Assembly: GCA_041495205.1 (NCBI GenBank)
Contig: JBGQCF010000004.1
Coordinates: 22,118-86,117, forward strand
Length of the DNA: 64,000 nucleotides
Origin: Gammaproteobacteria bacterium
Lineage (GTDB): Bacteria; Pseudomonadota; Gammaproteobacteria; Burkholderiales; JAHFRG01
Direction: 5' to 3'
Positions 685 to 49,881 of this stretch are shown one piece after another. Made by a program: the position numbers and the translations under genes. Numbering within the stretch: position 1 is the stretch's first letter; every line of letters begins with the position of its first letter. The notes beneath the pieces are model-generated. The model ran no database searches and had not been told where the DNA came from. It saw only the letters and a program-made list of their open reading frames with translations.

Positions 685-768
685 CAGTGTAAATAAATTA
701 GACAAGTTTTATCCTCCTTCAGAAGCTGGCCGAATGCTGGCTGTGGCATAGCATCAAAGCTAAACCTA

Positions 769-1599
769 ATGAACATCACCTTCATCGGCGGCGGCAACAT
801 GGCAAGCGCCTTGATCGGCGGGCTATTGCAACAGGGCCACGCCGCCACCTCTTTGCGCGTCGTGGATGTTTCACAGCAAGCCCGCGACGCCATCAGCAAG
901 CGCTACGGCGTTGCCGTTTTCGCGGATCTGGCACAAGGCTGCACGGGTGCGGAAGTCATCATTCTTGCGGTGAAGCCGCAGCAGATGCGCGAAGTCGCGG
1001 TGCAACTCGGGCCTAATCTCTCCGGGCAAATTGTACTGAGTATCGCGGCAGGCATCCGTCTCAAGGATTTGATGCGATGGCTTGGCACACAGAATTGCAC
1101 GTTAGTACGCGCTATGCCGAACACCCCTGCACTGATTGGAGCGGGCATTACCGGGCTTGCTTTCTATAATTTCCCACCGAGGCATATCGTCACGCCACAG
1201 CAGCGCAAACAAATTGAAGCCGTCATGAGTGCAGTGGGAGGGGTTCTTTGGGTACGCAGCGAAGAAGACTTGGACGCAGTTACGGCAGTTTCGGGCAGCG
1301 GGCCGGCTTATGTATTTTATTTCATCGAGGCTCTGCAGCAAGCGGCGAAAGAACTCGGCTTTGACGACGATCAAGCCAAGAAACTCGTGCTCGCAACTTT
1401 TTCAGGCGCGGTGAAACTGGCGGAACAGGGCGAGGATGTGCAAATCTTGCGGCAACGCGTCACCTCCAAAGGCGGCACCACCGAGCGCGCGATGGCCAGC
1501 ATGGCAGCGGACCAGGTGAAAGAGGCGATCGTGCGCGCGATTCGCGCCGCCGCTGAGCGCTCGCGCGAACTCGGGGATGAATTCGGCAAGGCGGATTGA
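769..1599 (+). CDS. proC: pyrroline-5-carboxylate reductase
   Basis: 276 aa with an N-terminal Rossmann motif (ITFIGGGNMASALIGG) and the C-terminal ProC signature (VTSKGGTTE). Confidence 0.93.
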   Translation: MNITFIGGGNMASALIGGLLQQGHAATSLRVVDVSQQARDAISKRYGVAVFADLAQGCTGAEVIILAVKPQQMREVAVQLGPNLSGQIVLSIAAGIRLKDLMRWLGTQNCTLVRAMPNTPALIGAGITGLAFYNFPPRHIVTPQQRKQIEAVMSAVGGVLWVRSEEDLDAVTAVSGSGPAYVFYFIEALQQAAKELGFDDDQAKKLVLATFSGAVKLAEQGEDVQILRQRVTSKGGTTERAMASMAADQVKEAIVRAIRAAAERSRELGDEFGKAD

Positions 1600-1601
1600 T
1601 C

Positions 1602-2174
1602 ATGTTGGACCAGGCGCTGCAATTTCTACTGGAAACGGCAATCGGCCTCCTTACTTTCGCCCTGCTTCTGCGCTTCTATATGCAGTTGCTGAAAACCTCG
1701 TTTCGCAACCCGGTGGGGGAATTTGTGGTGGCGCTTACCGACTGGCTGGTACGCCCGGCGCGGCGCGTGATTCCCGGGCTGCATGGCCTGGACCTGGCAA
1801 GTCTTATTCTGGCCTGGGCGATGCAAGCGCTGTTGCTGCTGGTGATTTACTGGATCAAAGGTTTCGTTTTCAGCGGCACGCCGGGGGTGGCTGCAGGTGT
1901 TTTATTGACGCTCGCCGTTCTGGAAATCCTGAAATACAGCGTTTACCTGCTGATTGTCTGCGTCATCGTTCAGGTGCTGTTGAGCTGGACCCATCCTTAT
2001 GCGGCGCTCGCGCCGCTGTTTAACAGCCTCACCCGGCCGTTTCTGCGCCCTTTCAAGCGCCTTATCCCTCCGATTGGAAATGTAGACCTGTCGCCACTTT
2101 TTGTTTTAGTCCTAGCTCAACTTGCGCTCATTCTCATCGCTCACGTCTATCGCATAATAGCAGGCATGTTTTAA
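1602..2174 (+). CDS. yggT: YggT family membrane protein
   Basis: Hydrophobic four-TM protein directly after proC, which is the conserved proC-yggT pairing. The ORF track begins at a TTG at 1596; the ATG at 1602 is preferred. Confidence 0.85.
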   Translation: MLDQALQFLLETAIGLLTFALLLRFYMQLLKTSFRNPVGEFVVALTDWLVRPARRVIPGLHGLDLASLILAWAMQALLLLVIYWIKGFVFSGTPGVAAGVLLTLAVLEILKYSVYLLIVCVIVQVLLSWTHPYAALAPLFNSLTRPFLRPFKRLIPPIGNVDLSPLFVLVLAQLALILIAHVYRIIAGMF

Positions 2175-2455
2175 ATCCCCCTTCTAAGCCGCCGAGTACC
2201 GCAGCCAAGCCGGGGAAAGTCGGCGAGCACTGTCTGAGCGCGAAGCGCGAGTTGCGCAGCCGCCCGGCGAGGCGAGGAACGGAGGGAACCCCGAAGGGGC
2301 GGCGAGGCAGGGCGTCCTTTTGTTTGGTTACTTTATTTTGGACGAGCAAAATAAAGTAACCAGCCGCCGGGCTGCCCCCGGCGAATTTTATTTCCCCCTC
2401 ACTCCTTCGGCAAGCTCAGGACAGACTCCGCCCTCTCCCGCCAGGGGAGAGGGTA
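2174..2455. mobile_element. MITE-like nonautonomous element, copy A (inverted homologue of 46600-46870)
   Basis: Aligns over its whole length, by eye about 75-80%, to the reverse complement of 46600-46870. Has TCCCC(C/T)T termini, TA at the flanks, and two conserved internal hairpins. Begins at the yggT stop codon. Confidence 0.6.
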
Positions 2456-2475
2456 TAAATGGAGTGCCGCGGCAG

Positions 2476-3930
2476 CTACATCAGCACAATATCGTACTGC
2501 TCCTGCGGGTACAGTGTTTCTACTTGCAGGCTGATCGGCTTGCCGATGAAGTCGCCCAGCATGGCAAGACTCTGCGATTCCTCATCAAGAAACATATCAA
2601 TCACTTCCTGCGAGGCGAGAATACGATACTCCCGGGCACTGAACTCGCGCGCCTCGCGCAGCAGCTCGCGCAGGATTGCGTAACAAACGGTCTGCGCGGT
2701 CTTCACTTCACCGCGCCCTTTACAAGTGGGACAGGGCTCGCACAGCACGTGCGCGAGACTCTCGCGAGTGCGCTTCCTGGTCATTTCAACCAGCCCCAGC
2801 GCGGTAAAGCCGTTCACCGTCATGCGCGTTCGATCGCACGCGAGCGCCTTCTTGAGCTCTGCAAGAACCGCGTTCCGATGTTCTTCGCTGTCCATGTCAA
2901 TGAAGTCCATTATGATGATGCCGCAGAGGTTGCGCAGCCTCAATTGCCGGGCGATGCCATGTGCCGCTTCCAGGTTGGTCTTGAAGATGGTGTCGTCGAA
3001 ATTGCGTCCGCCGACGAAGCCGCCAGTGTTTACGTCCACGGTGGTCAGCGCCTCGGTCTGGTCGATGATGAGATAGCCTCCGGACTTCAAATCCACGCGC
3101 CGCGCCAGCGCTTTTTCGATTTCGTCTTCCACGTCGTGAAGATCAAAGAGCGGACGCTCGCCGGTATAGTGCTCCAGCCGCTGTTTCGCGTTACGCATGT
3201 AATCCTCGGCGAACGCGCACATTTTTTGGAAGGTCTCGCGCGAATCCACCACGATGTGCCCGGTTTCCTCGCTGACAAAATCGCGCAACACGCGCAGGCT
3301 TAAGGTCAAGTCCTGGTAGAGCAAAGTGCGTGGCGGCGCGGATCGTGATTTCTCCTGAATGCCGCTCCATAGCTTGCGCAGATATTCGATGTCGGCAAGC
3401 AGCTCGCGCTCGCTCGCGGTTTCCGCCATGGTGCGGATGATGAATCCGCCGCTGCTCTCCTGCGGCAGAAGTTGCTGCATTTTCTGGCGCAAAACTTCCC
3501 GCTCTTCTTCGTCCTCAATTCTTTGCGAAATGCCGATGTGCGATTCCTGCGGAAGATAAACCAGCATGCGGCCGGCGATGCTGATTTGGGTGGTGAGGCG
3601 CGCTCCCTTGGTGCTGATCGGGTCCTTGATTACCTGCACCAGGAGGTTCTGCCCTTCGTGCAGCAGTTTTTCGATGGGCTTGTTGTGATCGCTATTCTGT
3701 CGCTGTACCCAGATGTCCGCAACATGCAGGAACGCCGCGCGCTCCAGGCCGATTTCCACAAACGCCGACTGCATGCCGGGCAGCACCCGGCACACTTCTC
3801 CGACATAAATGTTGCCGACCAACCCCCGGCCGCTCACGCGCTCGATATGCAGCTCCTGCACCACCCCCTGCTGCATTACCGCCACGCGCGTTTCCTGGGG
3901 TGTGACGTTAATCAGAATGTCTTCGCTCAC
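2476..3930 (-). CDS. rng: ribonuclease G
   Basis: 484 aa with an S1 domain followed by an RNase E/G catalytic core (VVVDSRE, IIDQTEALTTVDVNTG). Sits in the conserved maf-rng arrangement. Confidence 0.9.
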   Translation of the reverse strand: MSEDILINVTPQETRVAVMQQGVVQELHIERVSGRGLVGNIYVGEVCRVLPGMQSAFVEIGLERAAFLHVADIWVQRQNSDHNKPIEKLLHEGQNLLVQVIKDPISTKGARLTTQISIAGRMLVYLPQESHIGISQRIEDEEEREVLRQKMQQLLPQESSGGFIIRTMAETASERELLADIEYLRKLWSGIQEKSRSAPPRTLLYQDLTLSLRVLRDFVSEETGHIVVDSRETFQKMCAFAEDYMRNAKQRLEHYTGERPLFDLHDVEDEIEKALARRVDLKSGGYLIIDQTEALTTVDVNTGGFVGGRNFDDTIFKTNLEAAHGIARQLRLRNLCGIIIMDFIDMDSEEHRNAVLAELKKALACDRTRMTVNGFTALGLVEMTRKRTRESLAHVLCEPCPTCKGRGEVKTAQTVCYAILRELLREAREFSAREYRILASQEVIDMFLDEESQSLAMLGDFIGKPISLQVETLYPQEQYDIVLM

Positions 3931-4547
3931 AGCACGCTATAGCCAAATTCCCGCAGCAATTGCGCGGTTTCGAATAACGGCAAACCCATCACTCCGGAAT
4001 AACTGCCGTCAATTCCCGCGACGAAAGCCGCGGCCAAGCCCTGTATCGCGTAGCCGCCCGCCTTATCCAGTGCCTCGCTGACTGCAGCATAGTGGCGGAT
4101 TTCCTCCTCGGTAAGCTGCTTAAAGCGCACCAAAGTGGTAGACAGACCCAATTCCGTTTTATCCTCAAACTTCAGCGCCACCGCGGTGAGTACACAATGT
4201 TCTTTTCCTGAAAGTTCACTCAGCATGGCCACAACCATGTCGTGGCCGGTTGGCTTGCCGATGATTTTCCCTTCCAGCGCAACCGTGGTGTCGGCAGCCA
4301 GCACCGGGAAATGCCGCAGCTTGCGCTGCACGAGACATGACCAACCTGCTTCCGCCTTGGCGCACGCGATGCGCTTTACGTAATCTCCGGGAGGCTCGCC
4401 CGCGAGCGGCGCCTCGTCCACATCGGGCCCGCGCGCCAGATACTCCCGGAACTGCACCACTTCGAAATTCACCCCGATCTGTTTCAGCAGTTCGCGCCGG
4501 CGCGGGCTGCGTGAAGCAAGGTAAATGTGCTTAACAGCGAGCGTCAT
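3927..4547 (-). CDS. maf: Maf-like nucleoside triphosphate pyrophosphatase
   Basis: 206 aa with the N-terminal LASRSPRRRELL motif and GAYAIQG-like GGYAIQG. Overlaps the rng start by 4 nt. Confidence 0.9.
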   Translation of the reverse strand: MTLAVKHIYLASRSPRRRELLKQIGVNFEVVQFREYLARGPDVDEAPLAGEPPGDYVKRIACAKAEAGWSCLVQRKLRHFPVLAADTTVALEGKIIGKPTGHDMVVAMLSELSGKEHCVLTAVALKFEDKTELGLSTTLVRFKQLTEEEIRHYAAVSEALDKAGGYAIQGLAAAFVAGIDGSYSGVMGLPLFETAQLLREFGYSVL

Positions 4548-4556
4548 GTGTTTTAG

Positions 4557-5027
4557 TTATTTACGGTGATACGGATGGTTGTTCATCAGGGACACGGCCC
4601 GGTAGAGTTGCTCGGCCAGCACCACGCGCACCAGAGCATGCGGCAAGGTCATCGCGGAAAGCGACAACCGGGTATCTGCATCATTCTTGATTTCTTCGTG
4701 CAGCCCGTCAGCGCCGCCGATGACAAATGCCACATCGCGCCCCGCCTGCATCCAGACCGCAATATTTTGCGCAAACTGCTCGGTGCTTAAGGCTCGACCG
4801 CCTTCATCCAGCACCACCCGCCGGCAGTTGCGCGGCACGGAGGCGAGTATGCGTCCGCGCTCGGCATCCAGGACTTGGTTCAAGGATTTTCCGGCGCTGC
4901 GCTTTTCCGCTTTGATTTCGATGAGCTGCATCTTGGCCTTGGGTGGCATGCGCTTCGCGTATTCAGAGAAGCCCATGTCAACCCAGGCCGGCATTTTATT
5001 GCCCACCGCTATAATCCACAGCTTCAT
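4557..5027 (-). CDS. rlmH: 23S rRNA (pseudouridine1915-N3)-methyltransferase
   Basis: SPOUT fold family member beginning MKLWIIAVGNKMP and ending NHPYHR. ATG at 5027 is preferred over the GTG at 5030. Confidence 0.9.
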   Translation of the reverse strand: MKLWIIAVGNKMPAWVDMGFSEYAKRMPPKAKMQLIEIKAEKRSAGKSLNQVLDAERGRILASVPRNCRRVVLDEGGRALSTEQFAQNIAVWMQAGRDVAFVIGGADGLHEEIKNDADTRLSLSAMTLPHALVRVVLAEQLYRAVSLMNNHPYHRK

Positions 5028-5036
5028 CACTTTCTG

Positions 5037-5396
5037 CTAGAAGGCGGCAGTCTTACGGCCGCGGCGCGCCGGTCGGGAATAACTCCACAACTGCTCCAGG
5101 TTATAGTACTTGCGCACCGCGGGCTGCATTATATGAACCACCACGTCACCCAGATCCACCAGCACCCATTCGCCATTTTCCTGCCCTTCCACGCCGTATA
5201 TTTTTGCACCGAGGGATTTCAGTTTTTCCCGCACGTTGTTGGAAAGCGCCTTGGTCTGCCGCGTGGAGTCTGCGCTGGCGATGACCATCCAATTAAATAA
5301 ACTCGTCTTGGGCCGCACGTCGAGCACCACGATATCCCGCGCCTTGATGTCTTCCAGCGCTGCGACCGTGGCCTTGACCATTTTATCGAGTCTCAT
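5037..5396 (-). CDS. rsfS: ribosome silencing factor
   Basis: RsfS-like core (DIKARDIVVLDV...MVIASADSTRQ...WVLVDLGDVVVHIM). The ATG at 5396 forms an ATGA overlap with the nadD stop. The longer ORF to 5549 lies inside nadD. Confidence 0.85.
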   Translation of the reverse strand: MRLDKMVKATVAALEDIKARDIVVLDVRPKTSLFNWMVIASADSTRQTKALSNNVREKLKSLGAKIYGVEGQENGEWVLVDLGDVVVHIMQPAVRKYYNLEQLWSYSRPARRGRKTAAF

Positions 5397-6052
5397 CCGC
5401 CTCCATGATATAAACCCTTTGCCTGAATATAATCGAGAACCAATGGCGGAAGCAAATCGCGGACATCTTTGCCGCCGGCCAACCTCTCCCTGATCATCGA
5501 AGCGGAAATATCCACCGGCGTGACTTCCAAAACAATAATGGCGCCACACGGCTTGTCCCGTGCGGCGTGCGGCGATTTGGCGCGGCGCTTTGCAAACTCT
5601 TCCTTGAGTGGCGATTGAAAATGCCTTAGATCAAAGCCGGGGCGTTGGGCAACTACGATGTGCGCCAACTCAAACAACTTGTTCCAGCAGTACCACGAGG
5701 CAAGCCCGGCAAAGGCATCCGCTCCCATGAGCAGGCACAGCGGCCTTTTGCCGCCCAACTCAGCACGCATTGCGCTTAGCGTATCCACGGTGTAACTGGC
5801 GCCTTCGCGCAAAATCTCGCGCTGGTCCAGAACGAAACAGGGATTGCCGGAAATTGCTAGCTTGAGCATTTGCACGCGCTGCTCAGCTGAGGCATGTGGC
5901 TGGCCGCGGTGCGGCGGCACATTTGCCGGGACAAAACGCACCTCTGCAAGACCAAGGCGGTTGGCGGCTTCCTTGGCAAGCGCAAGATGGCCGTAATGCA
6001 CCGGATCAAATACGCCGCCAAAAACACCGATGGGTTTTAAATCACTGGCCAC
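5393..6052 (-). CDS. nadD: nicotinate-nucleotide adenylyltransferase
   Basis: 219 aa with the GGVFDPVHYGHL (H/T)xGH nucleotidyltransferase motif. Conserved nadD-rsfS-rlmH order. Confidence 0.9.
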   Translation of the reverse strand: MASDLKPIGVFGGVFDPVHYGHLALAKEAANRLGLAEVRFVPANVPPHRGQPHASAEQRVQMLKLAISGNPCFVLDQREILREGASYTVDTLSAMRAELGGKRPLCLLMGADAFAGLASWYCWNKLFELAHIVVAQRPGFDLRHFQSPLKEEFAKRRAKSPHAARDKPCGAIIVLEVTPVDISASMIRERLAGGKDVRDLLPPLVLDYIQAKGLYHGGG

Positions 6053-6061
6053 AGAAGAAAA

Positions 6062-7378
6062 TCAAAGGAGCAGACGGCGGATGTCGGAAAGCACCGAGCA
6101 AAGATAGGTAGTGAAGCGCGCAGCCGCAGCGCCGTCGATTACGCGGTGATCGTAAGAAAGCGCCAGCGGCAGCATCAGTCTCGGCACCAACTTGCCATCT
6201 TTGTATACCGGTTTGAGCTGTGCTTTGGATACGCCGAGTATCGCCACCTCGGGGGCGTTGATAATGGGTGTGAACGCTGTGCCGCCGATACCGCCCAGGC
6301 TGGAAATGGAAAAGCACCCGCCCTGCATTTCGGTCGGGGAAAGTTTCTTGTCGCGCGCCCGCTGGCTCACTTGCGCAAGCTCACGTGCCAAATCAAACAC
6401 CCCCTTGCGGTCAGCATCACGCATCACCGGCACCACCAGACCTTCAGGCGTATCCACTGCTACTCCAATGTGGAAATATTTTTTCAGAACCAGGTTTTCG
6501 CCGCTTTTGTCGAGCGAGGCGTTGAATTCCGGGTGCGCCTTCAGTGCCGTCACGCACGCCTTGATGAGAAACGAGAGCATGGTAAGCTTGAAACCTTGTT
6601 TTTCGGTTTCGGCGCTGCTGGACTTGCGGAACGCTTCAAGATCAGTGATGTCGGCTTCGTCATGCTGCGTGACATGAGGAATGCTAACCCAGTTACGGTG
6701 CAGGTTGGCGCCGGCAAGTTTCTTGATGCGCGATAGCGGAACCGTTTCAATCGCGCCGAACTTAGCGAAATCCACCTGCGGCATTTCCGGAAGCGTGAAA
6801 CCGGCGCCTGCGCGTGGCCGAGAGAGTTCGCTTTTCACATACCCTTGCACGTCTTCCTTGAGGATGCGGCTCTTCGGCCCGGAGCCACCGACCAAAGTGA
6901 GATTGACGCCCAACTCGCGCGCAAATCGGCGCACCGAAGGGCTGGCGTGTGCAAGAGGCGCGCGCTCCGGCATTGCCGGAAGCGTAGGTGGCGCATGTAA
7001 CCTCACATCCCGACCTTCCGCCTTAAGTGAAGCTGGAACAATTTTCTCTTGCTCCGCCCCGACAGAAGGAGAAGATGCAAGCGTCGCTACCGTTTCCGCA
7101 ACTTTAGCCGGGGCGGCCGTCGCAATCGGGGCCTCTTCGCTCACCCCGATGGCAAGAAGCACCGAGCCTTCGGAAACTTTGTCGCCCACCTTGATCTTGA
7201 GCGCCTTCACCACTCCACTGTAAGGCGAAGGAATATCCATGGTGGCCTTGTCGGACTCCAGCGTGACCAGCGGATCTTCCTTGTTCACCGCGTCGCCTGG
7301 CTTGACCAACACCTCGATGATGGGAACATTCTTGAAGTCGCCGATATCCGGCACCAAGACGTCTTTTACTATTCCCAT
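6062..7378 (-). CDS. aceF: dihydrolipoamide acetyltransferase (PDH E2)
   Basis: 438 aa with one lipoyl domain (LESDKATMDIPSP), an E3-binding domain and a catalytic domain (SYDHRVIDGA). Lies downstream of aceE. Confidence 0.9.
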   Translation of the reverse strand: MGIVKDVLVPDIGDFKNVPIIEVLVKPGDAVNKEDPLVTLESDKATMDIPSPYSGVVKALKIKVGDKVSEGSVLLAIGVSEEAPIATAAPAKVAETVATLASSPSVGAEQEKIVPASLKAEGRDVRLHAPPTLPAMPERAPLAHASPSVRRFARELGVNLTLVGGSGPKSRILKEDVQGYVKSELSRPRAGAGFTLPEMPQVDFAKFGAIETVPLSRIKKLAGANLHRNWVSIPHVTQHDEADITDLEAFRKSSSAETEKQGFKLTMLSFLIKACVTALKAHPEFNASLDKSGENLVLKKYFHIGVAVDTPEGLVVPVMRDADRKGVFDLARELAQVSQRARDKKLSPTEMQGGCFSISSLGGIGGTAFTPIINAPEVAILGVSKAQLKPVYKDGKLVPRLMLPLALSYDHRVIDGAAAARFTTYLCSVLSDIRRLLL

Positions 7379-7399
7379 TTTTATCGCTCAGCCAGCCAA

Positions 7400-10069
7400 T
7401 TACACTGTCACCGGATTGGGTTTATCAGGGTCGATGCCATATTTCTTGATAGCCTGAGTAACCATGGCGACAGGCACTTCTCCTTCATCAGCGAGAGCTT
7501 TAATCGCTGCGACGACAACATAATAGCGGTCCATCTCGAAGAACTTGCGCAATTCCTTGCGCGTGTCGGAGCGTCCAAAACCGTCGGTGCCGAGCACCAG
7601 GTAATGCCCGGGCAGAAAGGCGCGGATCTGGTCTGCGTAAATTTTCATGTAATCCGTCGCGGCAACCACAGGCCCCTTGCGATCGTTGAGACAGGTTTCA
7701 GCATGACTCAAGCGCGGCTTCCCATCGGGATGCAGCATATTCCAGCGCTGCACATCCAATCCATCGCGGCGCAGTTGATTGAAGCTGGTGACGCTCCAGA
7801 TATCCGACGCGATCCCGAAATCCTGCCTGAGAAGTTCCGCTGCCGCAATCACTTCGCGCAGAATAGTACCGCTGCCCAGCAGTTGCACTCGCAGTGCTTT
7901 TTTGTCCGCTTGTCCCTCGCTGAATAAATACATGCCTTTGAGGATCCCTTCTTCAGCTCCTTTCGGCATGGCCGGATGAGCGTAGTTTTCGTTCATCACC
8001 GTGATGTAATAAAAGACGTCCTCCTGCTCCCGGTACATGCGGCGCAGCCCGTCCTGCATAATCACGGCAAGTTCATAAGCAAAAGTCGGGTCGTAGGAAA
8101 CACAGTTGGGAATCGTGGAAGCAATCAACTGACTGTGCCCGTCCTCGTGCTGCAAGCCTTCGCCGTTTAGCGTGGTGCGGCCGGAAGTGCCCCCGAGCAG
8201 GAAGCCGCGCGCGCGGGAATCGCCCGCCGCCCAGGCGAGGTCGCCGACGCGCTGGAAACCGAACATTGAATAGAAAATGTAGAACGGAATCATCGAAACG
8301 CCATGCGTGCTGTACGACGTGGCTGCGGCGATCCACGACGACATGGCACCGGCTTCGCAGATGCCTTCCTGCAAAATCTGCCCGTGTTTGTCTTCCTTGT
8401 AGAACATCAGCTGATCAGCGTCCTGGGGTGTGTAGAGCTGCCCCACCGAAGACCAGATGCCCAGTTGCCGGAACATGCCCTCCATGCCGAAAGTGCGCGA
8501 TTCGTCCGGGACGATAGGCACAACGTGCTTGCCGATACTTTTGTCTTTCACCAGGATGTTCAAGAGACGCACAAAAACCATGGTGGTGGAAGCTTCGCGT
8601 CCTTCACCGCCGGCTTTCAAAAAAGCGTCGAACGCCGACAGCGGCGGCACTTCCAGCGGTTCAGCTTTTCTGCGGCGCGCGGGCAGATAACCGCCCAGCG
8701 CCATGCGGTGCTCGCGCATGTAATTAAGCTCCGGCGAGCCTTCCTCGAATTTGAGATAAGGCACTTCCTCGATTTTGTCGTCGGGAATCGGCAAATTGAA
8801 ACGATCCCGGAAAGCTTTCAGGGAAGTCGTCCCCATTTTTTTCTGCTGGTGCGTGATGTTCTGCGATTCGCCCGCCTCTCCCATGCCATAGCCTTTCACC
8901 GTCTTGGCGAGTATTACCGTGGGCTGACCCTTGTGCTTCACCGCGGCACTGTAGGCGGCGTAAATCTTGTGTGGGTCGTGTCCGCCGCGGTTCAAGCGCC
9001 AGATGTCGTCGTCAGTCATGTTGGCGACCATTTCCAGGAGCTCGGGATACTTGCCGAAGAAATATTTGCGTATGTAGGCGCCGTCCTTGGCGCGATAGGT
9101 CTGATACTCGCCGTCTACGCATTCATCCATGAGCTTTTGCAAAAGCCCTTTGGTGTCCCTGGCCAGCAGCGGGTCCCAGTAGCTGCCCCAGATGAGTTTA
9201 ATCACGTTCCAGCCGGCGCCGCGAAAGTCCGCTTCCAGTTCCTGGATGATTTTGCCGTTGCCGCGCACCGGCCCGTCGAGCCGCTGCAGATTGCAGTTCA
9301 CCACGAAAATCAGATTGTCGAGCTTCTCGCGCGCGGCGATGCCGATGGCGCCCATAGATTCCGGCTCGTCCACTTCGCCGTCCCCGACAAAACACCAGAC
9401 CTTGCGTCCTTCGGTGTTGGCGATGCCGCGATCAGGCAGGTATTTCATGAAGCGCGCCTGATAGATCGCCATCAGCGGGCCAAGTCCCATCGATACGGTG
9501 GGAAACTGCCAGAAGTCGGGCATCAGCCATGGATGGGGATAGGAGGACAGGCCCTTGCCGCCCACTTCCTGGCGGAAATGGTCGAGCTGTTCCTCGGTGA
9601 GCCTTCCCAACATGAAGGCGCGGGAATAAATGCCCGGCGCCGAGTGGCCTTGCACGTAAACCAGGTCGCCGCCGTGTTTTTCAGACGGCGCGTGCCAGAA
9701 GTGGTTGTAGCCGACGTCGTACAGTGTAGCGCCGGATGCGAAGCTCGCGATATGGCCGCCGACATTGGTGTTCTTGTTGGCGCGCACCACCATGGCCAGC
9801 GCATTCCAGCGCGCGTAGGAACGGATACGGTGCTCCAGCTCGTGATTACCCGGCGAACGTTCCTCTTTTTCCGGCGGAATGGTGTTGACGTAGGCGGTAT
9901 TGGCGCTGAAGGGCAGATAAGCGCCCGAGCGGCGCGCTTTGTCAATCAGTCTTTCCAGCAGGTAATGAGCGCGGTCGGGGCCCTCCTGCTCCAGAACGGC
10001 TTCCAGCGCATCCAGCCATTCCTGCGTTTCCTGCGGATCGTGATCGGGGAATCGGTCCATGGCGGCCAC
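7400..10069 (-). CDS. aceE: pyruvate dehydrogenase E1 component (homodimeric type)
   Basis: 889 aa with a typical AceE N-terminus (DPQETQEWLDAL) and ThDP-binding region (GDGEVDEPES). Confidence 0.95.
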   Translation of the reverse strand: MAAMDRFPDHDPQETQEWLDALEAVLEQEGPDRAHYLLERLIDKARRSGAYLPFSANTAYVNTIPPEKEERSPGNHELEHRIRSYARWNALAMVVRANKNTNVGGHIASFASGATLYDVGYNHFWHAPSEKHGGDLVYVQGHSAPGIYSRAFMLGRLTEEQLDHFRQEVGGKGLSSYPHPWLMPDFWQFPTVSMGLGPLMAIYQARFMKYLPDRGIANTEGRKVWCFVGDGEVDEPESMGAIGIAAREKLDNLIFVVNCNLQRLDGPVRGNGKIIQELEADFRGAGWNVIKLIWGSYWDPLLARDTKGLLQKLMDECVDGEYQTYRAKDGAYIRKYFFGKYPELLEMVANMTDDDIWRLNRGGHDPHKIYAAYSAAVKHKGQPTVILAKTVKGYGMGEAGESQNITHQQKKMGTTSLKAFRDRFNLPIPDDKIEEVPYLKFEEGSPELNYMREHRMALGGYLPARRRKAEPLEVPPLSAFDAFLKAGGEGREASTTMVFVRLLNILVKDKSIGKHVVPIVPDESRTFGMEGMFRQLGIWSSVGQLYTPQDADQLMFYKEDKHGQILQEGICEAGAMSSWIAAATSYSTHGVSMIPFYIFYSMFGFQRVGDLAWAAGDSRARGFLLGGTSGRTTLNGEGLQHEDGHSQLIASTIPNCVSYDPTFAYELAVIMQDGLRRMYREQEDVFYYITVMNENYAHPAMPKGAEEGILKGMYLFSEGQADKKALRVQLLGSGTILREVIAAAELLRQDFGIASDIWSVTSFNQLRRDGLDVQRWNMLHPDGKPRLSHAETCLNDRKGPVVAATDYMKIYADQIRAFLPGHYLVLGTDGFGRSDTRKELRKFFEMDRYYVVVAAIKALADEGEVPVAMVTQAIKKYGIDPDKPNPVTV

Positions 10070-45144: not shown

Positions 45145-46542
45145 ATGACAAAAAAATCCAAATCCGGCAGCTCCAAACACCGGTCGGGAAGATTCAAAGA
45201 ACCGGTAACGGAGCTCACAAAACGCTATACCGCGTCTGTTGATTTCGACAAGCGGCTTGCGCCCTACGACATGCGGGCTTCGGCCGCGCATGCGCGCATG
45301 CTCAATGCCGTCGGCATCCTGAGCGCGAATGACCTCGCTGCAATTCAACATGGAATGAAGCAAATCAGCGGCGAAATCGCCTCCGGCAAATTCCTCTGGC
45401 GACTGGAGCTCGAAGACGTGCACATGAACATCGAAAACCGGCTCATCGCTTTGATTGGCGATGCCGGCAAGCGGCTGCATACCGCGCGCTCGAGAAACGA
45501 TCAGGTGGCAACCGATGTGCGGCTCTATTTGCGCGCTGCAGTTGACGACATTGCGAAGCTCATTAAAGCCGCGCAACGCGCCTTGCTCGATCTCGCCGAA
45601 AAACACGCCGCGACCGTGATGCCGGGATTTACGCACATGCAAGTCGCGCAGCCGGTCACTTTCGGCCACCATCTTCTGGCATATTTCGAAATGCTGAAGC
45701 GCGACAACGAACGGCTGGCCGATTGCCGCAAGCGGGTGAATCAATTGCCGTTGGGCAGCGCGGCGCTCGCCGGCACCAGTTACCCCATAGACCGGATGCG
45801 GGTGGCGAAGGAATTGGGTTTTGACGGAGTGTGCGAAAACTCGCTGGATGCGGTTTCCGATCGCGATTTCGCGATTGAGTTCACCGCCTGCGCGGCGCTC
45901 ATCATGACGCATCTGTCGCGCTTTTCCGAAGAGCTCATTCTGTGGATGAGCCCGGGATTCGGTTTCGTCGAGCTCGCCGACCGCTTTTGCACCGGCTCAT
46001 CCATCATGCCGCAGAAAAAAAATCCGGATGTGCCTGAACTCCTGCGCGGCAAGACCGGCAGGGTCAACGGCCACCTTGTGGCGCTACTCACCCTGATGAA
46101 AGCGCAGCCGCTCGCTTACAACAAGGACAACCAGGAAGACAAGGAGCCGCTGTTCGACACGGTGGACACCCTGGTGAACAGCCTGAGGATTTTCGCCGAG
46201 ATGATTCCGGGAATCAAAGTCAAGCGCGAAGCAATGCGGAAGATCGCAACTCAAGGTTACGCTACCGCCACCGATCTTGCCGACTATCTGGCGAAGAAGG
46301 GATTTCCATTCCGCGATGCTCATGAAGCGGTAGCGAAAGCGGTACGCTTTGCCGTCAAGCGCGGCTGCGATTTGAGCGAGCTGAAGCTCAACGAACTGCG
46401 TAAGTTTTCCAAGCTCATCGGCAAAGATGTTTATTCCGTGCTGACGCTGGAAGGCTCGGTGAACAGCCGCGACCATATCGGCGGCACGGCGCCAAAGCAG
46501 GTCAAAGCCGCGATTGCGCGTGCGCGCAAACAACTTGTTTAG
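45145..46542 (+). CDS. argH: argininosuccinate lyase
   Basis: Fumarate-lyase signature ([12 protein letters not shown]). ATG at 45145 preferred over the upstream alternative start. Confidence 0.93.
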
Positions 46543-46599
46543 AAAATGCCGGGGGCGGCCCCGACCAGCGAAGCTGAATGCGAAACGCCTATCAACTTA

Positions 46600-46870
46600 T
46601 CCCCTCTCCCCTTGAGGGAGAGGGTGGAGCCTGTCCTGAGCCTGCCGAAGGAGTGAGGGGAAATTCAAATTCGCCGGTGGCAGACCGGTAGCTGGTAACT
46701 TTCTTTTGCGTCGCCAAAAGAAAGTCACTAAAGAAAAGGCGACCCCGGTTCGCCGACTTCCCCTGCGTTCCTTAGCCAAACCGGGCGCTGCGCAACTCGC
46801 GCTACGCGCTCAGACAGTGCTCGCTGAACTTCCCCCGTTTTGGCTTCGTCACTTGGCGGCTCACAGGGGA
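46600..46870. mobile_element. MITE-like element, copy B (271 bp)
   Basis: TCCCCT...AGGGGA termini flanked by TA on both sides (46598-99 and 46871-72). Inverted homologue of 2174-2455. Internal hairpins at 46601-46623 and 46695-46727. Confidence 0.65.
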
Positions 46871-47124
46871 TAACAAAAAACCTGAACTGCCGGAATACTT
46901 TTCTACTCTGCCCCCCAATTGTTTAAGCTGTTTACCCGAGACCTTGATTCCCATGTAGTATGACCAAATCATGTCAATTTGACGCAATTAATTACACTTT
47001 TTCGGGTGTCTATTTCTAGTCGGGCCATCGTCCAAGAGTTGGAGGTGAAACCTGAGGAAAACCGAGGGCGCTTGGCTCGCCATTTCTTGCGTGTCGGGAT
47101 GAGATGCGCAAAGGAGGAACTGTC

Positions 47125-47364
47125 ATGAAGCGTTGGATGGCGCGTATTTTGTGCGTGAGTGCAGTTGGATTAGGCTGTGTAGCGTGCAGCTCGCAGCCGG
47201 TATTTCTTCGAAACCCACAAACAGGAGCGACGGCTCAGTGCGGCCCGTATTTCAATTGGACCCCATTGCAGCCAGGACTCTCCGATGCCTACGCTAAGGA
47301 AAGGGGCTGCATCGCTGATTTTCAGCGGCTTGGCTATGAGCGAACTCCCGAGACAATTCGATGA
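47125..47364 (+). CDS. small lipoprotein (cassette 1 cargo)
   Basis: 79 aa from the ATG at 47125, preceded by an AAGGAGG RBS. Signal peptide with lipobox LGCVA-C. Confidence 0.55.
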   Translation: MKRWMARILCVSAVGLGCVACSSQPVFLRNPQTGATAQCGPYFNWTPLQPGLSDAYAKERGCIADFQRLGYERTPETIR

Positions 47365-47507
47365 AGGCCCCTGTGGAGGTGGCGACGCGGCCTAACGCCA
47401 GCCGTGGACCTGATGGTTCTCCCGACGTACCGTCCTGTAACAGTATCGAGAAAACCTGGGGCAGACTGGGATGAACCAGATTCATGGGCCGTGCTGGCCG
47501 AGTCCGG

Positions 47508-47588
47508 GCCTAACCACGGCGTGCAGCGGACCGTTCAACAGCGTCGCTCTCGCGCCGCTGTTGCCTGGCCGCTGACGCAAGGTTAGGG
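47508..47588 (+). repeat. attC-like recombination site 1 (81 nt)
   Basis: Inverse core GCCTAAC and core GTTAGGG. The inner arms GCGTGCAGCGG and CCGCTGACGC pair with one unpaired G, and a further CAACAGCG/CGCTGTTG pairing is present. Confidence 0.65.
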
Positions 47589-47640
47589 TGCATCCCGAGT
47601 ACACGCGGGTCTCATTTGCTTGGGTAGAGTGACTACTTAT

Positions 47641-48090
47641 ATGTCGACTGTCCGCGCCGCCGCTGTGCGCTTGGAGCGGTTGTGCCCGCTCATTCTCCTC
47701 ATCCTCATGGGTGGCTTGGTGCCGTTTACTGCATTTCCGTTAGACCCTGTTCCTTCCTACACAGCGGAAGAGTTGCGAGAGAATGCCCGTTCGTTCCTCA
47801 TGGTTCGAGAGAAGAAGCAACCTTTGACTGCTGAAGCGGCACTTCATGCCATGGAGTTCAAGGGTTACGTGGCGGGGATTCTGGATGCGGGTACCGGCTT
47901 GTATGATCCGAAGAACCCCGATGCCAAGCTGGCTGAGTGCGCTCGCCGAAAGTCCGTGGGCGACATCGCGCACCGTGTTGCCGTACTGATCACCACAGGG
48001 CCACTTGATCGCTCAATACCTGCCCCATGGCAGCTCGGCATCTCTCTCTATGCCGCGTGCGATGACGCCGCCTGGACGTCGCCAAAGTAG
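47641..48090 (+). CDS. secreted Rap1a/Tai4-like protein (cassette 2 cargo)
   Basis: Signal-peptide-like N-terminus. FKGYVAGILDA...LAEC...SVGDIAHRVAVLI...LYAAC resembles the Rap1a immunity-protein pattern. The start is ambiguous (TTG 47620, ATG 47641 or ATG 47707). Confidence 0.45.
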   Translation: MSTVRAAAVRLERLCPLILLILMGGLVPFTAFPLDPVPSYTAEELRENARSFLMVREKKQPLTAEAALHAMEFKGYVAGILDAGTGLYDPKNPDAKLAECARRKSVGDIAHRVAVLITTGPLDRSIPAPWQLGISLYAACDDAAWTSPK

Positions 48091-48117
48091 TGGTTATCTG
48101 TGCGGGCTGTTCGTGCA

Positions 48118-48195
48118 GCCTAACCGCACGATCGACCGGACATGCCAGCGGACTTGCGCCCGCCGGCAAACGGCCGGTCATCGTGAACGTTAGAT
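48118..48195 (+). repeat. attC-like recombination site 2 (78 nt)
   Basis: Inverse core GCCTAAC and core GTTAGAT, a perfect GTTRRRY. The arms CACGATCGACCGG and CCGGTCATCGTG pair with one unpaired C. The core overlaps the next ORF's ATG (GTTAGATG). Confidence 0.7.
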
Positions 48196-49162
48196 GTCTC
48201 GGGCCACACATCGCTCTACGCGCAAGGGCCGCGATCTAGAGCTCTTAGTCGCACGCATCAAGGAGCACCAGCTCCCTGGGGCCGTTGTTCGCTCCCCCGA
48301 TCTGGTTCTCGACCGAGACACAGGTGAGAAACGAGAGGTCGACGTTGGGATTCATATCCCGCGAGAAGGTGGCGAAATTTTCATCGCCATAGAATGCCGC
48401 GACCGAAAGGCCGTTCAACACGTCGAATGGGTCGAGCAGCTTATCTGTAAGAAGCAGAGCATCGGTGCCGATACGCTGGTCGCTGTCACCAGCTCGCGGT
48501 TTTACCGACCAGCCCGCGTGAAGGCCCTAAAACATGGGGTCATTCTTACGCGAATGACTTCCCGGCTTCCGAGCGAGGTCGGCCAGCTTGCTGGTTCGTT
48601 TTTCGTGACCTTCCAGTTCGTTTCCCCTCACATATTGCGCGTCGATCTGAAGCTGCCTTCGCATTTAGTCGACGACTATGAAACCTACACTTACCGGCAC
48701 TCGCTTCTCGACCGCGACTTGAAGCTGGAAGAGCTGGCTGATGTATGGAGTAGCCCGAACCTCATCCGCACGGTCGTGAAAGAAATCCACGATTTTGCTC
48801 GTTACAAGTTCGCAAAAGTTGAACTTAAGCACACTAATGCGACCGTGTTTACGAAAACCGGTATGTTTCCGATTCTTGGTGCAAAGCTGAGCTACGAACT
48901 GAACTATGGAGAAGTGCAACTCCCGCTTCGCGCTATTCACGAGTTGGTAGCACTGGACACGCCCAACCACGACGATGCCGTTGCTTTTACGTTTGGCGCT
49001 GGGAGTGAGGTGCTCAGCGAAATAGTTCTCGACCCCGACTCAGACACGCTCCGCTGGGATATCCTGGGGCGGACGCTTCTGGGTGAAGGGAAGGTATTGA
49101 TTGGCGCCCGTTTGAAAGCAAGCAAGCCGGTGAGCATTACGACGATGCGACTCGATTTATGA
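48194..49162 (+). CDS. PD-(D/E)xK (Mrr-cat-like) restriction-endonuclease-domain protein with unknown C-terminal domain (cassette 3 cargo)
   Basis: The N-terminal roughly 120 aa read GRDLELLVARI...REVDVGI...IAIECRDRK...LVAVTSSRF, matching the helix-D...E-x-K(R) layout of Mrr-type nucleases. The remaining roughly 200 aa are beta-rich and unrecognised. Confidence 0.6.
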   Translation: MSRATHRSTRKGRDLELLVARIKEHQLPGAVVRSPDLVLDRDTGEKREVDVGIHIPREGGEIFIAIECRDRKAVQHVEWVEQLICKKQSIGADTLVAVTSSRFYRPARVKALKHGVILTRMTSRLPSEVGQLAGSFFVTFQFVSPHILRVDLKLPSHLVDDYETYTYRHSLLDRDLKLEELADVWSSPNLIRTVVKEIHDFARYKFAKVELKHTNATVFTKTGMFPILGAKLSYELNYGEVQLPLRAIHELVALDTPNHDDAVAFTFGAGSEVLSEIVLDPDSDTLRWDILGRTLLGEGKVLIGARLKASKPVSITTMRLDL

Positions 49163-49164
49163 AC

Positions 49165-49214
49165 ATCTAACTTTCGCTTACAGGGGACGCGGGACCTCCC
49201 TCGATAAAGTAGAC
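49165..49214 (+). repeat. possible degenerate short attC
   Basis: ATCTAAC (fits RYYYAAC), then CTTTCG...CGATAAAG arms, then GTAGAC, which is GTTAGAC missing one T. It is shorter than typical attC sites. Confidence 0.3.
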
Positions 49215-49245
49215 ACTTCTAGCTAACGGAAGAAGGAGGTGTCGA

Positions 49246-49332
49246 ATGGGAAGGCCGATTGGGCCAAAGAAGGTGCATCGCTACAGTGCAGAGTTCAAAC
49301 TGACGGCAGTGAAGCTGAGTCGTTATAAATAA
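49246..49332 (+). pseudogene. IS3-family transposase OrfA N-terminal stub
   Basis: The 28 codons MGRPIGPKKVHRYSAEFKLTAVKLSRYK* match the conserved YSxEFKxxAVKL HTH start of IS3/IS911-type OrfA. An AAGGAGG RBS is retained. The rest of the IS is absent. Confidence 0.6.
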
Positions 49333-49341
49333 CAAATCAAT

Positions 49342-49881
49342 ATGCAGTATGAAGCAATCATAGATTTTTGGTTTAAGGAGATTGAGCCGAAATTTTGGTG
49401 GAAAAAAGATAGTGATTTTGATCGCTTGATAGCGGACAGGTTTCTGGACGTCCATAATGCGGCGGCAAAATGCGAGCTCTATGTTTGGAGAGACCGCCCA
49501 TTGGGCAGGCTTGCTGAAATAATCGTTCTGGACCAGTTTTCCCGCAATATATATCGCAACACTCCTTTGTCGTTTGCCTACGATCCGCTTGCACTGGTTT
49601 TGGCGCAGGAAGCGATCAATGCAAAAATGAACCAATCCTTAGGCCCGGATCAAAAGGCGTTTCTTTACATGCCTTTCATGCATAGCGAGTCTCCTGTAAT
49701 CCATGAGCTCGCGGTGGAACTATTCAAGGAGCCAGGGTTGGAATCCAATTTAAAGTTCGAAATCCAGCATAAAGCCATCATTGACAGGTTTCGCCGTTAT
49801 CCGCACCGCAATGAAATTCTGGGCCGGCAATCCACCGAAGAGGAAATAAGTTTCCTGAAAGAGACAGGTTCCTCGTTTTAA
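49342..49881 (+). CDS. DUF924 family protein
   Basis: 179 aa with FWF...WWKKD N-terminus, QFSRNIYR and RYPHRNEILGR..T.EE..FL, typical of DUF924. AT-rich relative to its neighbours. Confidence 0.75.
   Translation: MQYEAIIDFWFKEIEPKFWWKKDSDFDRLIADRFLDVHNAAAKCELYVWRDRPLGRLAEIIVLDQFSRNIYRNTPLSFAYDPLALVLAQEAINAKMNQSLGPDQKAFLYMPFMHSESPVIHELAVELFKEPGLESNLKFEIQHKAIIDRFRRYPHRNEILGRQSTEEEISFLKETGSSF

What the first reader, a model, noticed from the sequence alone, without database searches (positions are those of the whole stretch)
47038..49214. Integrase-less integron cassette array (CALIN) hidden between argH and a DUF924 gene
Two roughly 80-nt elements have the full anatomy of integron attC sites.
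- Inverse core: both start with GCCTAAC (RYYYAAC).
- Core: they end with GTTAGGG (47582-88) and GTTAGAT (48189-95), matching GTTRRRY.
- Interior: imperfect palindromes with single extrahelical bases. In attC1, GCGTGCAGCGG pairs with CCGCTGACGC. In attC2, CACGATCGACCGG pairs with CCGGTCATCGTG.

Each site follows one ORF, and the next ORF begins within 4-60 nt of the core. The ATG at 48194 is inside GTTAGATG. This is the packing typical of promoterless cassettes.

A third, short and degenerate site (49165-49214) follows the last ORF. No intI or attI is present in the window. The array is bracketed by a MITE on the left and an IS3 stub on the right, which suggests the integrase end has been lost or lies elsewhere. 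The three cargo genes have no annotated function and would otherwise be read as an unexplained hypothetical-protein islet.
Basis: partly seen in the sequence, partly recalled or inferred. Interest (0 to 1): 0.8.

Follow-up and report, generated by a model that had tools for sequence, protein, structure and literature searches.

The report
Integron cassette array without integrase
Downstream of argH, this betaproteobacterial genome carries a small array of three mobile integron gene cassettes with no integrase nearby, which is real and well supported but belongs to an element type that is already well described.

Summary
Window 47508-47588 and 48118-48195 are genuine integron attC sites.

- **Structure.** Both have AAC/GTT-anchored R boxes, a short unpaired spacer and an L stem. 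Each has two single-base bulges 7 nt apart on the bottom-strand L''-R'' arm.
- **Model scores.** They are the top two hits in the 64-kb window for two attC covariance models. I built these from independent sites in class 1 integrons and metagenomic arrays. Scores are 30.0 and 23.7 bits (E 3e-5 and 1.5e-3); the next unrelated hit scores 12.5 bits.
- **Cassette turnover (decisive).** Related metagenomic contigs join attC1 directly to ORF3. They lack exactly the 607 bp (47583-48189) between the two G|TT crossover points. Another contig has the ORF2 cassette flanked by different cassettes.
- **ORF3 elsewhere.** ORF3 homologues are cassettes in other arrays, with the same boundaries (GTTAG|ATG and stop-ACATCTAAC). 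One array has 20 attC sites. Another lies next to an intI pseudogene.
- **No integrase.** No tyrosine recombinase is detectable in the window.

- The third site is only a decayed remnant.
- The left boundary is 47019-47025 (GTCGGGC here, GTTGGGC in relatives), not 47038.
- GTTAGGG is not strictly GTTRRRY.
- The IS3 stub is weakly supported.

Verdict: a typical CALIN, a new member of a known kind.

The parts
46597..46869 (.). MITE-like repeat between argH and the array
   Evidence: 80% identical over 283 nt to an inverted copy at window 2179-2458.
46945..47018 (+). Conserved non-cassette left flank, a candidate attI-like region
   Evidence: Shared by contigs that carry different first cassettes (L114 versus L116-L119 and the window). 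Similarity ends at the core site. Function as an attI is inferred, not tested.
47019..47025 (+). Left-most core site, GTCGGGC in the window
   Evidence: Relatives L116, L118 and L119 read GTTGGGC (canonical GTTRRRY) and L114 reads GTTAGAC. Sequences diverge just after GTT in L114. The T-to-C change in the window probably inactivates this site (inference).
47020..47582 (+). Cassette 1 (563 bp), carrying ORF1 and a 143-nt spacer with an extra GCCTAAC at 47390
   Evidence: Bounded by the left core and the G|TT of attC1. About 95% identical in L119.
47125..47364 (+). ORF1, 79 aa, probable small lipoprotein or secreted protein of unknown family
   Evidence: Called as a 79-aa gene in JGI and Logan contigs. 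No Pfam, NCBIfam or PADLOC hit. The only homologue cluster found comes from the related populations.
47508..47588 (+). attC1 (81 nt; the recombinogenic bottom strand is the - strand)
   Evidence: Fold -32.6 kcal/mol, z = -7.0. R1 scores 19.1 bits (E 0.022) and R2 23.7 bits (E 1.5e-3), full model length, - strand. Bulges T47530 and C47523.
47583..48189 (+). Cassette 2 (607 bp), carrying ORF2 and attC2 up to its G
   Evidence: Exactly this segment is absent from L116, L118 and L119, where attC1 is joined to ORF3 as ...GCAAGG|TTAGATGTCTCGG. It is present with other neighbours in L114. TGCAGCCTAAC at its 3' end is complementary to GTTAGGGTGCA at its 5' end (repeat I24).
47641..48090 (+). ORF2, 149 aa, N-terminal hydrophobic segment, orphan
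   Evidence: Only two other homologues among 5.8 billion proteins, both in short cassette-like contigs. No family hit.
48118..48195 (+). attC2 (78 nt; bottom strand is the - strand)
   Evidence: Fold -24.4 kcal/mol, z = -4.5. R1 scores 26.6 bits (E 2.7e-4) and R2 30.0 bits (E 3.4e-5). Bulges T48140 and G48133, the canonical T...G pair.
48190..49216 (+). Cassette 3, carrying ORF3 and a decayed attC
   Evidence: Starts with TTAGAT and its 3' end starts with the perfectly complementary ATCTAAC (repeat I18). The same boundaries flank ORF3 homologues in L098, L104, L015, L100, L012, L099, L017 and L106.
48194..49162 (+). ORF3, 322 aa, Mrr-like PD-(D/E)xK nuclease domain plus an uncharacterised beta-rich C-terminal domain
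   Evidence: Pfam Mrr_cat 23.2 bits against a cut-off of 21. AlphaFold2 model pLDDT 86.7. The N-terminal ~130 residues match AF1548, MspJI, AspBHI and Can2 nuclease domains. 67 homologues.
49163..49216 (+). Remnant of the ORF3 cassette's attC (R'' ACATCTAAC intact, the rest decayed, R' reads G-TAGAC)
   Evidence: The R'' and part of the 5' arm are homologous to the attC that follows ORF3 homologues. It is not detected by R2 and has no significant fold.
49246..49332 (+). 28-codon ORF resembling the N-terminus of an IS3-family OrfA (weak)
   Evidence: HTH_Tnp_1 E 0.025, 15.2 bits against a cut-off of 24.1. No plasmid tblastn hit. Conserved in L116 and L117.
49342..49881 (+). DUF924 gene, right-hand neighbour, low G+C
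   Evidence: PF06041 E 3e-63. G+C 45-47% against 55-60% around it. Not found downstream of argH in more distant relatives.

Best explanation
Window 47019-49216 is an integron cassette array lacking a nearby integrase (a CALIN). It lies downstream of argH in an uncultured betaproteobacterium.

**Composition.** The array holds three same-strand cassettes.
- ORF1 is a small probable lipoprotein.
- ORF2 is an orphan membrane-anchored protein.
- ORF3 is an Mrr-like nuclease.
- The cassettes are separated by two intact attC sites and end in a decayed third attC.

**Mechanism (established integron biology).** The attC bottom strand, here the - strand, folds into a hairpin. The extrahelical bases on that hairpin mark it for an integron integrase. 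The integrase cuts between G and TT of the R' core.

**What is shown here.** Recombination at exactly those points has happened in this lineage. The 607-bp ORF2 cassette is present in the window. It is precisely absent in sister populations, and it sits next to other cassettes in a third contig.

**What is inferred.**
- The integrase acts, or acted, in trans from elsewhere in the genome or from an incoming element.
- Alternatively, the integrase was lost from the left end, where a conserved attI-like boundary remains. In this copy that boundary is mutated from GTT to GTC.
- The cassettes depend on read-through or internal promoters for expression.
- ORF3 is a restriction-like or defence nuclease.
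For: **attC anatomy and stability.**

**Model scores.**
- Independent covariance models R1 and R2 give these two sites the top window scores, on the bottom strand. R1 gives 26.6 and 19.1 bits; R2 gives 30.0 and 23.7 bits; the next unrelated hit is 10.6 bits with R1 and 12.5 bits with R2.
- A bona fide 76-nt class 1 attC scores 19.8 bits with R1, so the window scores are in the real-site range.

**Cassette-exact polymorphism.**
- L116, L118 and L119 read ...GACGCAAGG|TTAGATGTCTCGG. They lack 47583-48189.
- L114 has a different first cassette after the shared left flank. It has the ORF2 cassette at 89% identity with attC2 (26.3 bits). After G|TTAGAC it has a different 347-aa gene.

**Within-cassette complementarity.** The 5' TTRRRY end and the 3' R'' of the same cassette are complementary beyond the 7-bp box (repeats I18 and I24).

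**ORF3 homologues as cassettes.**
- They have identical boundary logic in at least 8 independent contigs.
- One is in a 20-attC array, L104.
- One is in an array next to an intI pseudogene, L100 (TIGR02249 244.8 bits, E 1e-72), with four attC hits.

**No integrase in the window.** The best tblastn hit with IntI1 or the L100 IntI is E 0.64.

**Conservation pattern.** Cassettes are better conserved than the backbone. The ORF3 region is 97-98% identical against 87% for argH.
Against: - No integrase was found, so current mobility is unproven.
- The attC1 E-value is modest (0.022 with R1, 0.0015 with R2). My models are home-made with shortened calibration, not the IntegronFinder model.
- The third attC is not detectable.
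- The left core reads GTC in the window.
- The contigs showing the polymorphism are short metagenomic assemblies. Only L116 includes argH, so for L114 'same locus' rests on about 60 nt of shared flank.
- No promoter-like site was found for the array.
Confidence: 0.9

Rival explanations
1. The array is the detached part of a complete, active integron. The genome encodes intI elsewhere, separated by a rearrangement or on another replicon, and that integrase still services this array in trans. On this reading it is a CALIN only in the positional sense.
For: Cassette gain or loss between closely related populations implies recent IntI activity. The IntegronFinder authors describe such split integrons as one route to CALIN and report CALIN in replicons that encode IntI (PMC4889954).
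Against: Nothing in the 64-kb window resembles a tyrosine recombinase. The left core is GTC in this copy. The rest of the genome could not be searched with these tools.
Confidence: 0.4
2. The cassettes were inserted one after another at a secondary, non-att chromosomal site by an integrase. There was never a resident integron at this locus.
For: There is no intI pseudogene next to the left boundary, only about 480 nt of MITE-containing spacer between argH and the array. Secondary-site insertion is documented (PMC4889954; abstract of bioRxiv 10.1101/2022.09.11.507474).
Against: The left flank (46945-47018) is conserved upstream of different first cassettes and ends in a canonical GTTRRRY in relatives. 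That pattern is what a dedicated attI would produce.
Confidence: 0.25
3. The two elements are ordinary intergenic palindromes, such as REP-like elements or terminators, that resemble attC by chance. On this reading the three genes are a plain genomic islet.
For: The GCCTAAC heptamer alone occurs at chance frequency in the window. Rfam has no matching family. The third site is not significant.
Against: The covariance models pick exactly these two sites out of 128 kb searched. The cassette-exact 607-bp indel sits at G|TT. Homologous cassettes have the same boundaries in arrays with 20 attC sites and next to an intI pseudogene. Neither hairpin is followed by a T-run, and neither appears in the terminator scan.
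Confidence: 0.03

Closest known systems
[quoted passage not shown] 2016, PMC4889954)
   Same: It has two or more attC sites within 4 kb and no intI or recognisable intI pseudogene nearby. It is a small array of mostly function-unknown cassettes that do not encode antibiotic resistance.
   Different: Nothing essential differs. Comparative data additionally reveal a conserved attI-like left boundary and cassette turnover between populations. The third attC is decayed, and an IS-like fragment abuts the array.
Sedentary chromosomal integrons (Vibrio or Xanthomonas type), and the metagenomic array L104
   Same: It is chromosomal, with same-strand promoterless cassettes, many of them orphan ORFs. 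The ORF3 family occurs as a cassette in such arrays (L104, L100).
   Different: It has only 2-3 sites, and they are heterogeneous: the two attC sites share little beyond the R and L boxes. The 20 sites of L104 are near-identical 60-mers. No integrase is adjacent.
Class 1 mobile integron cassettes (aadA, aadB, cmlA and others on plasmids L121-L123)
   Same: The attC architecture is the same, including the T...G bulge pair and the G|TT crossover. Models trained partly on these sites recognise the window sites.
   Different: The window sites have a longer variable terminal stem (78-81 nt against 60 nt). There is no intI1, attI1, Pc or 3'-CS, and no resistance genes.
Mrr / MspJI-type PD-(D/E)xK restriction endonucleases (for the ORF3 cargo)
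   Same: The N-terminal ~130 residues match Mrr_cat above the Pfam cut-off and match the MspJI, AspBHI and AF1548 nuclease folds.
   Different: The C-terminal ~190-residue beta-rich domain has no PDB match. There is no PADLOC or NCBIfam family. The domain order and partner domains differ from MspJI, where the nuclease is C-terminal.

Membership tests
Integron attC recombination site | R'' (..AAC) and R' (GTT..) boxes at the two ends, mutually complementary | tested here: met
   GCCTAAC/GTTAGGG and GCCTAAC/GTTAGAT. The R boxes pair in the minimum-free-energy fold (7 bp in attC1, 5 bp in attC2). GTTAGGG deviates from GTTRRRY at the last base only.
Integron attC recombination site | L''/L' stem separated from the R stem by a short unpaired spacer, with extrahelical bases on the bottom-strand L''-R'' arm | tested here: met
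   2-3 nt are unpaired on each side. Single-base bulges are T47530 and C47523 (attC1) and T48140 and G48133 (attC2), 7 nt apart and only on the 3' arm of the bottom strand. By sequence, the aadA1 attC has the same T...G geometry.
Integron attC recombination site | Significant score against an attC covariance model, with the bottom strand scoring better than the top | tested here: met
   Home-made models R1 and R2 (no window sequence in the training set) give 26.6 and 19.1 bits, then 30.0 and 23.7 bits. The - strand scores higher than the + strand. The curated IntegronFinder model itself was not available.
Integron attC recombination site | Actual recombination by an integron integrase | not testable with these tools
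   This needs an in vivo or in vitro assay. Indirect evidence is the cassette-exact indel at G|TT.
Integron gene cassette | A discrete unit (TTRRRY...ORF...attC...G) that is present or absent, or re-ordered, between genomes at the G|TT crossover | tested here: met
   The 607-bp ORF2 unit is absent from L116, L118 and L119 and sits among other cassettes in L114. ORF3 homologues are flanked by GTTAG|ATG and stop-ACATCTAAC...GTTRRRY in at least 8 contigs.
CALIN (Cury et al. 2016) | At least two attC sites clustered within 4 kb | tested here: met
   Two sites lie 530 nt apart, plus one remnant. Definition from PMC4889954.
CALIN (Cury et al. 2016) | No integron integrase gene next to the cluster | tested here: met
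   tblastn with IntI1 (sequence taken from L121) and with the L100 IntI gives a best hit of E 0.64 anywhere in the window. The window extends 47 kb upstream and 15 kb downstream of the array.
Complete integron | intI adjacent to attI and a Pc promoter | tested here: not met
   No intI was found and no sigma-70-like promoter match in 46500-49400. A conserved left flank ending in GTTRRRY in relatives could be an attI, but that is untested.
Mrr-like PD-(D/E)xK nuclease (ORF3) | Mrr_cat domain and nuclease fold with conserved acidic catalytic residues | tested here: inconclusive
   Pfam 23.2 bits against a cut-off of 21. Foldseek hits to AF1548, MspJI and AspBHI at E 3e-5 to 2e-3 cover only ~130 residues. 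D50, E67 and R69 are invariant in 35 homologues. Activity was not tested.
IS3-family insertion sequence (right-hand stub) | OrfA HTH_Tnp_1 domain and terminal inverted repeat | tested here: inconclusive
   The 28-aa ORF scores 15.2 bits against a cut-off of 24.1. There was no plasmid hit and no second copy in the window.

The most novel reading that the evidence does not exclude
The site downstream of argH is an integrase-less but still active cassette docking platform. It would be an orphan attI-like site, conserved across related populations and serviced in trans. ORF3 would represent an undescribed single-gene, Mrr-like anti-phage nuclease family. That family travels as an integron cassette, as Tn7-like cargo, and within defence islands.
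Probability: 0.2. Interest if true: 0.5.

Novelty: new member of a known kind. Interest (0 to 1): 0.3.

Why it matters
The three hypothetical genes are mobile cassettes rather than an unexplained islet. This gives a clean natural example of cassette gain or loss at G|TT in an uncultured betaproteobacterial lineage.

It also flags ORF3 as a candidate defence gene. ORF3 combines an Mrr-like nuclease with an unknown sensor-like domain. It occurs in integron arrays, in a Tn7-like element and next to a TIR-STAND gene.

For genome annotation, it shows that small CALINs are missed by standard pipelines. It does not change what is known about integrons.

Tried and rejected
- **Rfam.** It holds no attC family, and only a tRNA was found in the window.
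- **Strict motif scan.** A strict RYYYAAC...GTTRRRY scan missed attC1 because its R' ends in G, so I relaxed it to AAC...GTT with R-box pairing.
- **Exact-protein look-ups.** Look-ups of ORF3 and DUF924 only returned the same population with an identical array.
- **ArgH scan of GTDB genomes.** No relative closer than 76% was found. Those with conserved synteny (L028, L032, L064) have unrelated kinase genes between argH and grxD. That is too distant for an empty-site comparison.
- **Cargo annotation.** PADLOC and NCBIfam gave nothing for ORF1-3.
- **Promoters.** The promoter scan found no site.
- **IS3-like peptide.** tblastn of the 28-aa peptide against plasmids found nothing.
- **Extra GCCTAAC at 47390.** I considered it as the start of another attC, but found no fold (z = -0.1) and no model hit (4.6 bits).
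- **GTTGGAG at 47038.** I considered it as the left core and rejected it in favour of 47019-47025 on comparative grounds.
- **Alignment A5.**
Full report
**1. The observation**

The sequence is as described. 47508-47588 (81 nt) begins GCCTAAC and ends GTTAGGG. 48118-48195 (78 nt) begins GCCTAAC and ends GTTAGAT.

Folded as single-stranded DNA, the - strands (the bottom strands of + oriented cassettes) form one long imperfect hairpin. Energies are -32.6 kcal/mol (z = -7.0) and -24.4 kcal/mol (z = -4.5). None of 200 dinucleotide shuffles folds as well.

In both sites the structure has three parts:
- a paired R box;
- 2-3 unpaired bases on each side;
- an L stem carrying two single-base bulges 7 nt apart.

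Both bulges lie on the L''-R'' arm of the bottom strand: T47530 and C47523, and T48140 and G48133. By sequence, this is the geometry of the T and G extrahelical bases in the aadA1 attC that I retrieved from plasmids.

The heptamer GCCTAAC alone occurs at chance frequency in the window (5 found, 4.7 expected). However, a relaxed AAC...GTT hairpin scan of both strands finds only four loci in 64 kb. The two candidates are much the most stable, and the other two lie inside coding regions.

**2. Covariance-model test**

Rfam has no attC family, so I built my own models.

- I recovered bona fide class 1 integron arrays from plasmids. I also used metagenomic arrays found through ORF3 homologues.
- I aligned 13 bottom-strand attC sites of about 60 nt.
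- I imposed the canonical R / spacer / L / bulge / terminal-stem structure and built model R1.

| Model | Search | attC2 (48118-48195, -) | attC1 (47508-47588, -) | Next unrelated hit |
|---|---|---|---|---|
| R1 | whole window, filters off | 26.6 bits, E 2.7e-4 | 19.1 bits, E 0.022 | 10.6 bits |
| R2 | whole window, filters off | 30.0 bits, E 3.4e-5 | 23.7 bits, E 1.5e-3 | 12.5 bits |

- With R1, both window hits cover the full model length.
- R1 also recovers attC sites that were not in its seed: cmlA5, cmlA1, and sites in L012, L099 and L100. It gives a genuine 76-nt class 1 attC only 19.8 bits. The window scores therefore lie in the range of real sites with long terminal stems.
- R2 was rebuilt from 34 R1 hits, none from the window or its orthologues.
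- With R2, the - strand outscores the + strand.
- Both E-values are below the E<1 cut-off that IntegronFinder uses (PMC4889954).

**3. Comparative evidence (decisive)**

Exact-protein look-ups first returned only the same population with the same array.

The only homologue cluster of ORF1 (89% identity) led to contigs L116-L120. In L116, L118 and L119 the sequence matching window 46673-47586 runs straight into the sequence matching 48186 onward. The junction reads ...GCCGCTGACGCAAGG|TTAGATGTCTCGGGCC. That is attC1 fused to the start of ORF3.

The window therefore differs by exactly 607 bp (47583-48189). This is the unit TTAGGG...ORF2...attC2...G, bounded by the two G|TT crossover points. An integrase-mediated attC x attC excision, or the reverse insertion, would produce exactly this product.

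Contig L114 adds a third arrangement:
- It shares the left flank (46945-47006).
- After ...TTCTAG|TTAGAC it carries a different first gene of 93 aa.
- It then has the ORF2 cassette at 89% identity with attC2 (26.3 bits with R2).
- After G|TTAGAC it has a different 347-aa gene.

At least three arrangements of cassettes therefore exist around the same flank.

The alignment also locates the true left boundary. Relatives have a canonical core GTTGGGC where the window reads GTCGGGC (47019-47025).

The backbone is more diverged than the cassettes. argH is 87% identical and 46673-47103 is 78%. The ORF1 region is about 95% and the ORF3 region is 97-98%. This pattern fits recent cassette exchange.

**4. 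The cargo is cassette cargo elsewhere**

ORF3 has 67 homologues. In loci fetched from metagenomes the homologue is repeatedly bounded the same way:
- The upstream attC ends GTTAG|ATG or GTTAA|ATG, so the start codon lies inside the core.
- The stop codon is followed within a few bases by ACATCTAAC or ACATTTAAC, which opens a clear attC.
- This is seen in L098, L104, L015, L100, L012, L099, L017 and L106.

Two of these loci are especially informative:
- L104 is an array of 20 near-identical 60-nt attC sites.
- L100 has four attC hits. Upstream on the opposite strand it has an intI pseudogene. The conceptual translation scores 244.8 bits (E 1.3e-72) on TIGR02249 'integron integrase', against 95.9 bits for XerD.

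Within the window, each cassette's 5' end is complementary to its own 3' R'' beyond the 7-bp box:
- GGTTAGGGTGCA with TGCAGCCTAACC;
- GAACGTTAGATGT with ACATCTAACTTTC.

This is expected if the two ends once formed one attC in a circular cassette.

ORF2 has only two other homologues in 5.8 billion proteins, and ORF1 only the sister-population variant. Such orphan status is typical of cassettes.

**5. The third site and the flanks**

*Third site.* 49163-49216 starts with the family-typical ACATCTAAC, and its 5' arm resembles that of the L098 site. It has no significant fold, and R2 does not find it even in a 3.2-kb local search at E<=10. It is a decayed remnant whose R' reads G-TAGAC.

*Right flank.* The 28-codon ORF that follows resembles an IS3-family OrfA N-terminus only weakly (HTH_Tnp_1 E 0.025, below cut-off; no plasmid hit).

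*Left flank.* The MITE is supported. 46597-46869 has an inverted copy, 80% identical, at 2179-2458.

*Integrase and promoter.*
- No tyrosine recombinase signal exists anywhere in the window. The best tblastn hit is E 0.64, using the real IntI1 from L121 and the L100 IntI as queries.
- No sigma-70-like promoter match was found.

**6. What it is and how it works**

With two attC sites 530 nt apart and no adjacent integrase or pseudogene, the locus meets the published definition of a CALIN (PMC4889954).

*Shown here:*
- attC anatomy;
- model scores;
- cassette-exact polymorphism;
- homologous cassettes in other integrons;
- absence of intI in the window.

*Inferred from established integron biology:*
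- The bottom-strand hairpins are substrates of an integron integrase acting in trans, or one formerly resident at the left end.
- ORF2 was excised or inserted by attC x attC, or by attI-like x attC, recombination.
- The GTT-to-GTC change disables the left site in this copy.

*Not testable here:* whether the genome encodes an intI elsewhere.

**7. Cargo function**

ORF3 has an N-terminal Mrr-like PD-(D/E)xK nuclease domain:
- Pfam Mrr_cat scores 23.2 bits against a cut-off of 21.
- D50, E67 and R69 are invariant in 35 homologues.
- The AlphaFold2 model has pLDDT 86.7.
- Foldseek matches AF1548, MspJI, AspBHI and Can2 nuclease domains over about 130 residues.

Its beta-rich C-terminal domain has no PDB match. 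Other homologues sit next to TIR-STAND, AAA_13 and Fic genes near a relaxase, and in the cargo of a Tn7-like element. A restriction-like or defence role is plausible but untested. PADLOC has no matching model.

**8. Novelty and verdict**

CALINs are common and IntegronFinder should detect this one, so it is a new member of a known kind.

The only moderately interesting extras are:
- the conserved attI-like boundary without an integrase;
- the population-level cassette turnover;
- the ORF3 family as a possible new defence nuclease.

Noticed in passing
window 46597-46869 and 2179-2458: A MITE-like repeat of about 275 nt is present twice in the window in opposite orientation, at 80% identity. By eye, its 'CCCCTCTCCCC...GAGGGG' palindromic core resembles sequence in tandem ~190-nt units in an unrelated metagenomic locus (L012 8960-9700).
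   Followed up: partly
L104 (Ga0307508_10007835) 64-9812: This 9.9-kb contig consists almost entirely of an integron array with 20 near-identical 60-nt attC sites spaced roughly 450-790 bp apart. One cassette is an ORF3 homologue. It looks like a sedentary chromosomal integron.
   Followed up: partly
L100 4780-5765 (- strand): An integron integrase pseudogene with in-frame stops and an internal deletion lies next to a four-attC array that contains an ORF3 homologue.
   Followed up: yes
L124/L125 and L126: ORF3 homologues also occur outside integrons. In L124 and L125 one lies beside TIR-STAND, AAA_13/DUF2130 and Fic genes near a relaxase. In L126 one lies in the cargo of a Tn7-like element (TnsA, an rve-domain protein, TniB, TniQ) with SNF2 and PLD genes. 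The context looks like a defence island.
   Followed up: no
window 49342-49881: The DUF924 gene has 45-47% G+C against 55-60% in its surroundings. It is absent downstream of argH in more distant relatives, where kinase genes fill the argH-grxD gap. It is probably also acquired.
   Followed up: partly
L117 about 700-815 (equivalent to window 47555-47581): One sister contig has a 27-nt deletion that removes the 3' half of attC1. This is either natural decay of the site or an assembly artefact.
   Followed up: no
window 47390-47507: A third GCCTAAC lies 26 nt after the ORF1 stop, followed by 110 nt with no ORF before attC1. It may be the remnant of a further, fused cassette, but there is no fold or model support.
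   Followed up: partly
L116 398-2289: In a sister population, three extra genes, one with a pilin-like N_methyl motif, lie between argH and the array flank. The window has only 146 nt there. The argH-proximal side is therefore also variable.
   Followed up: no
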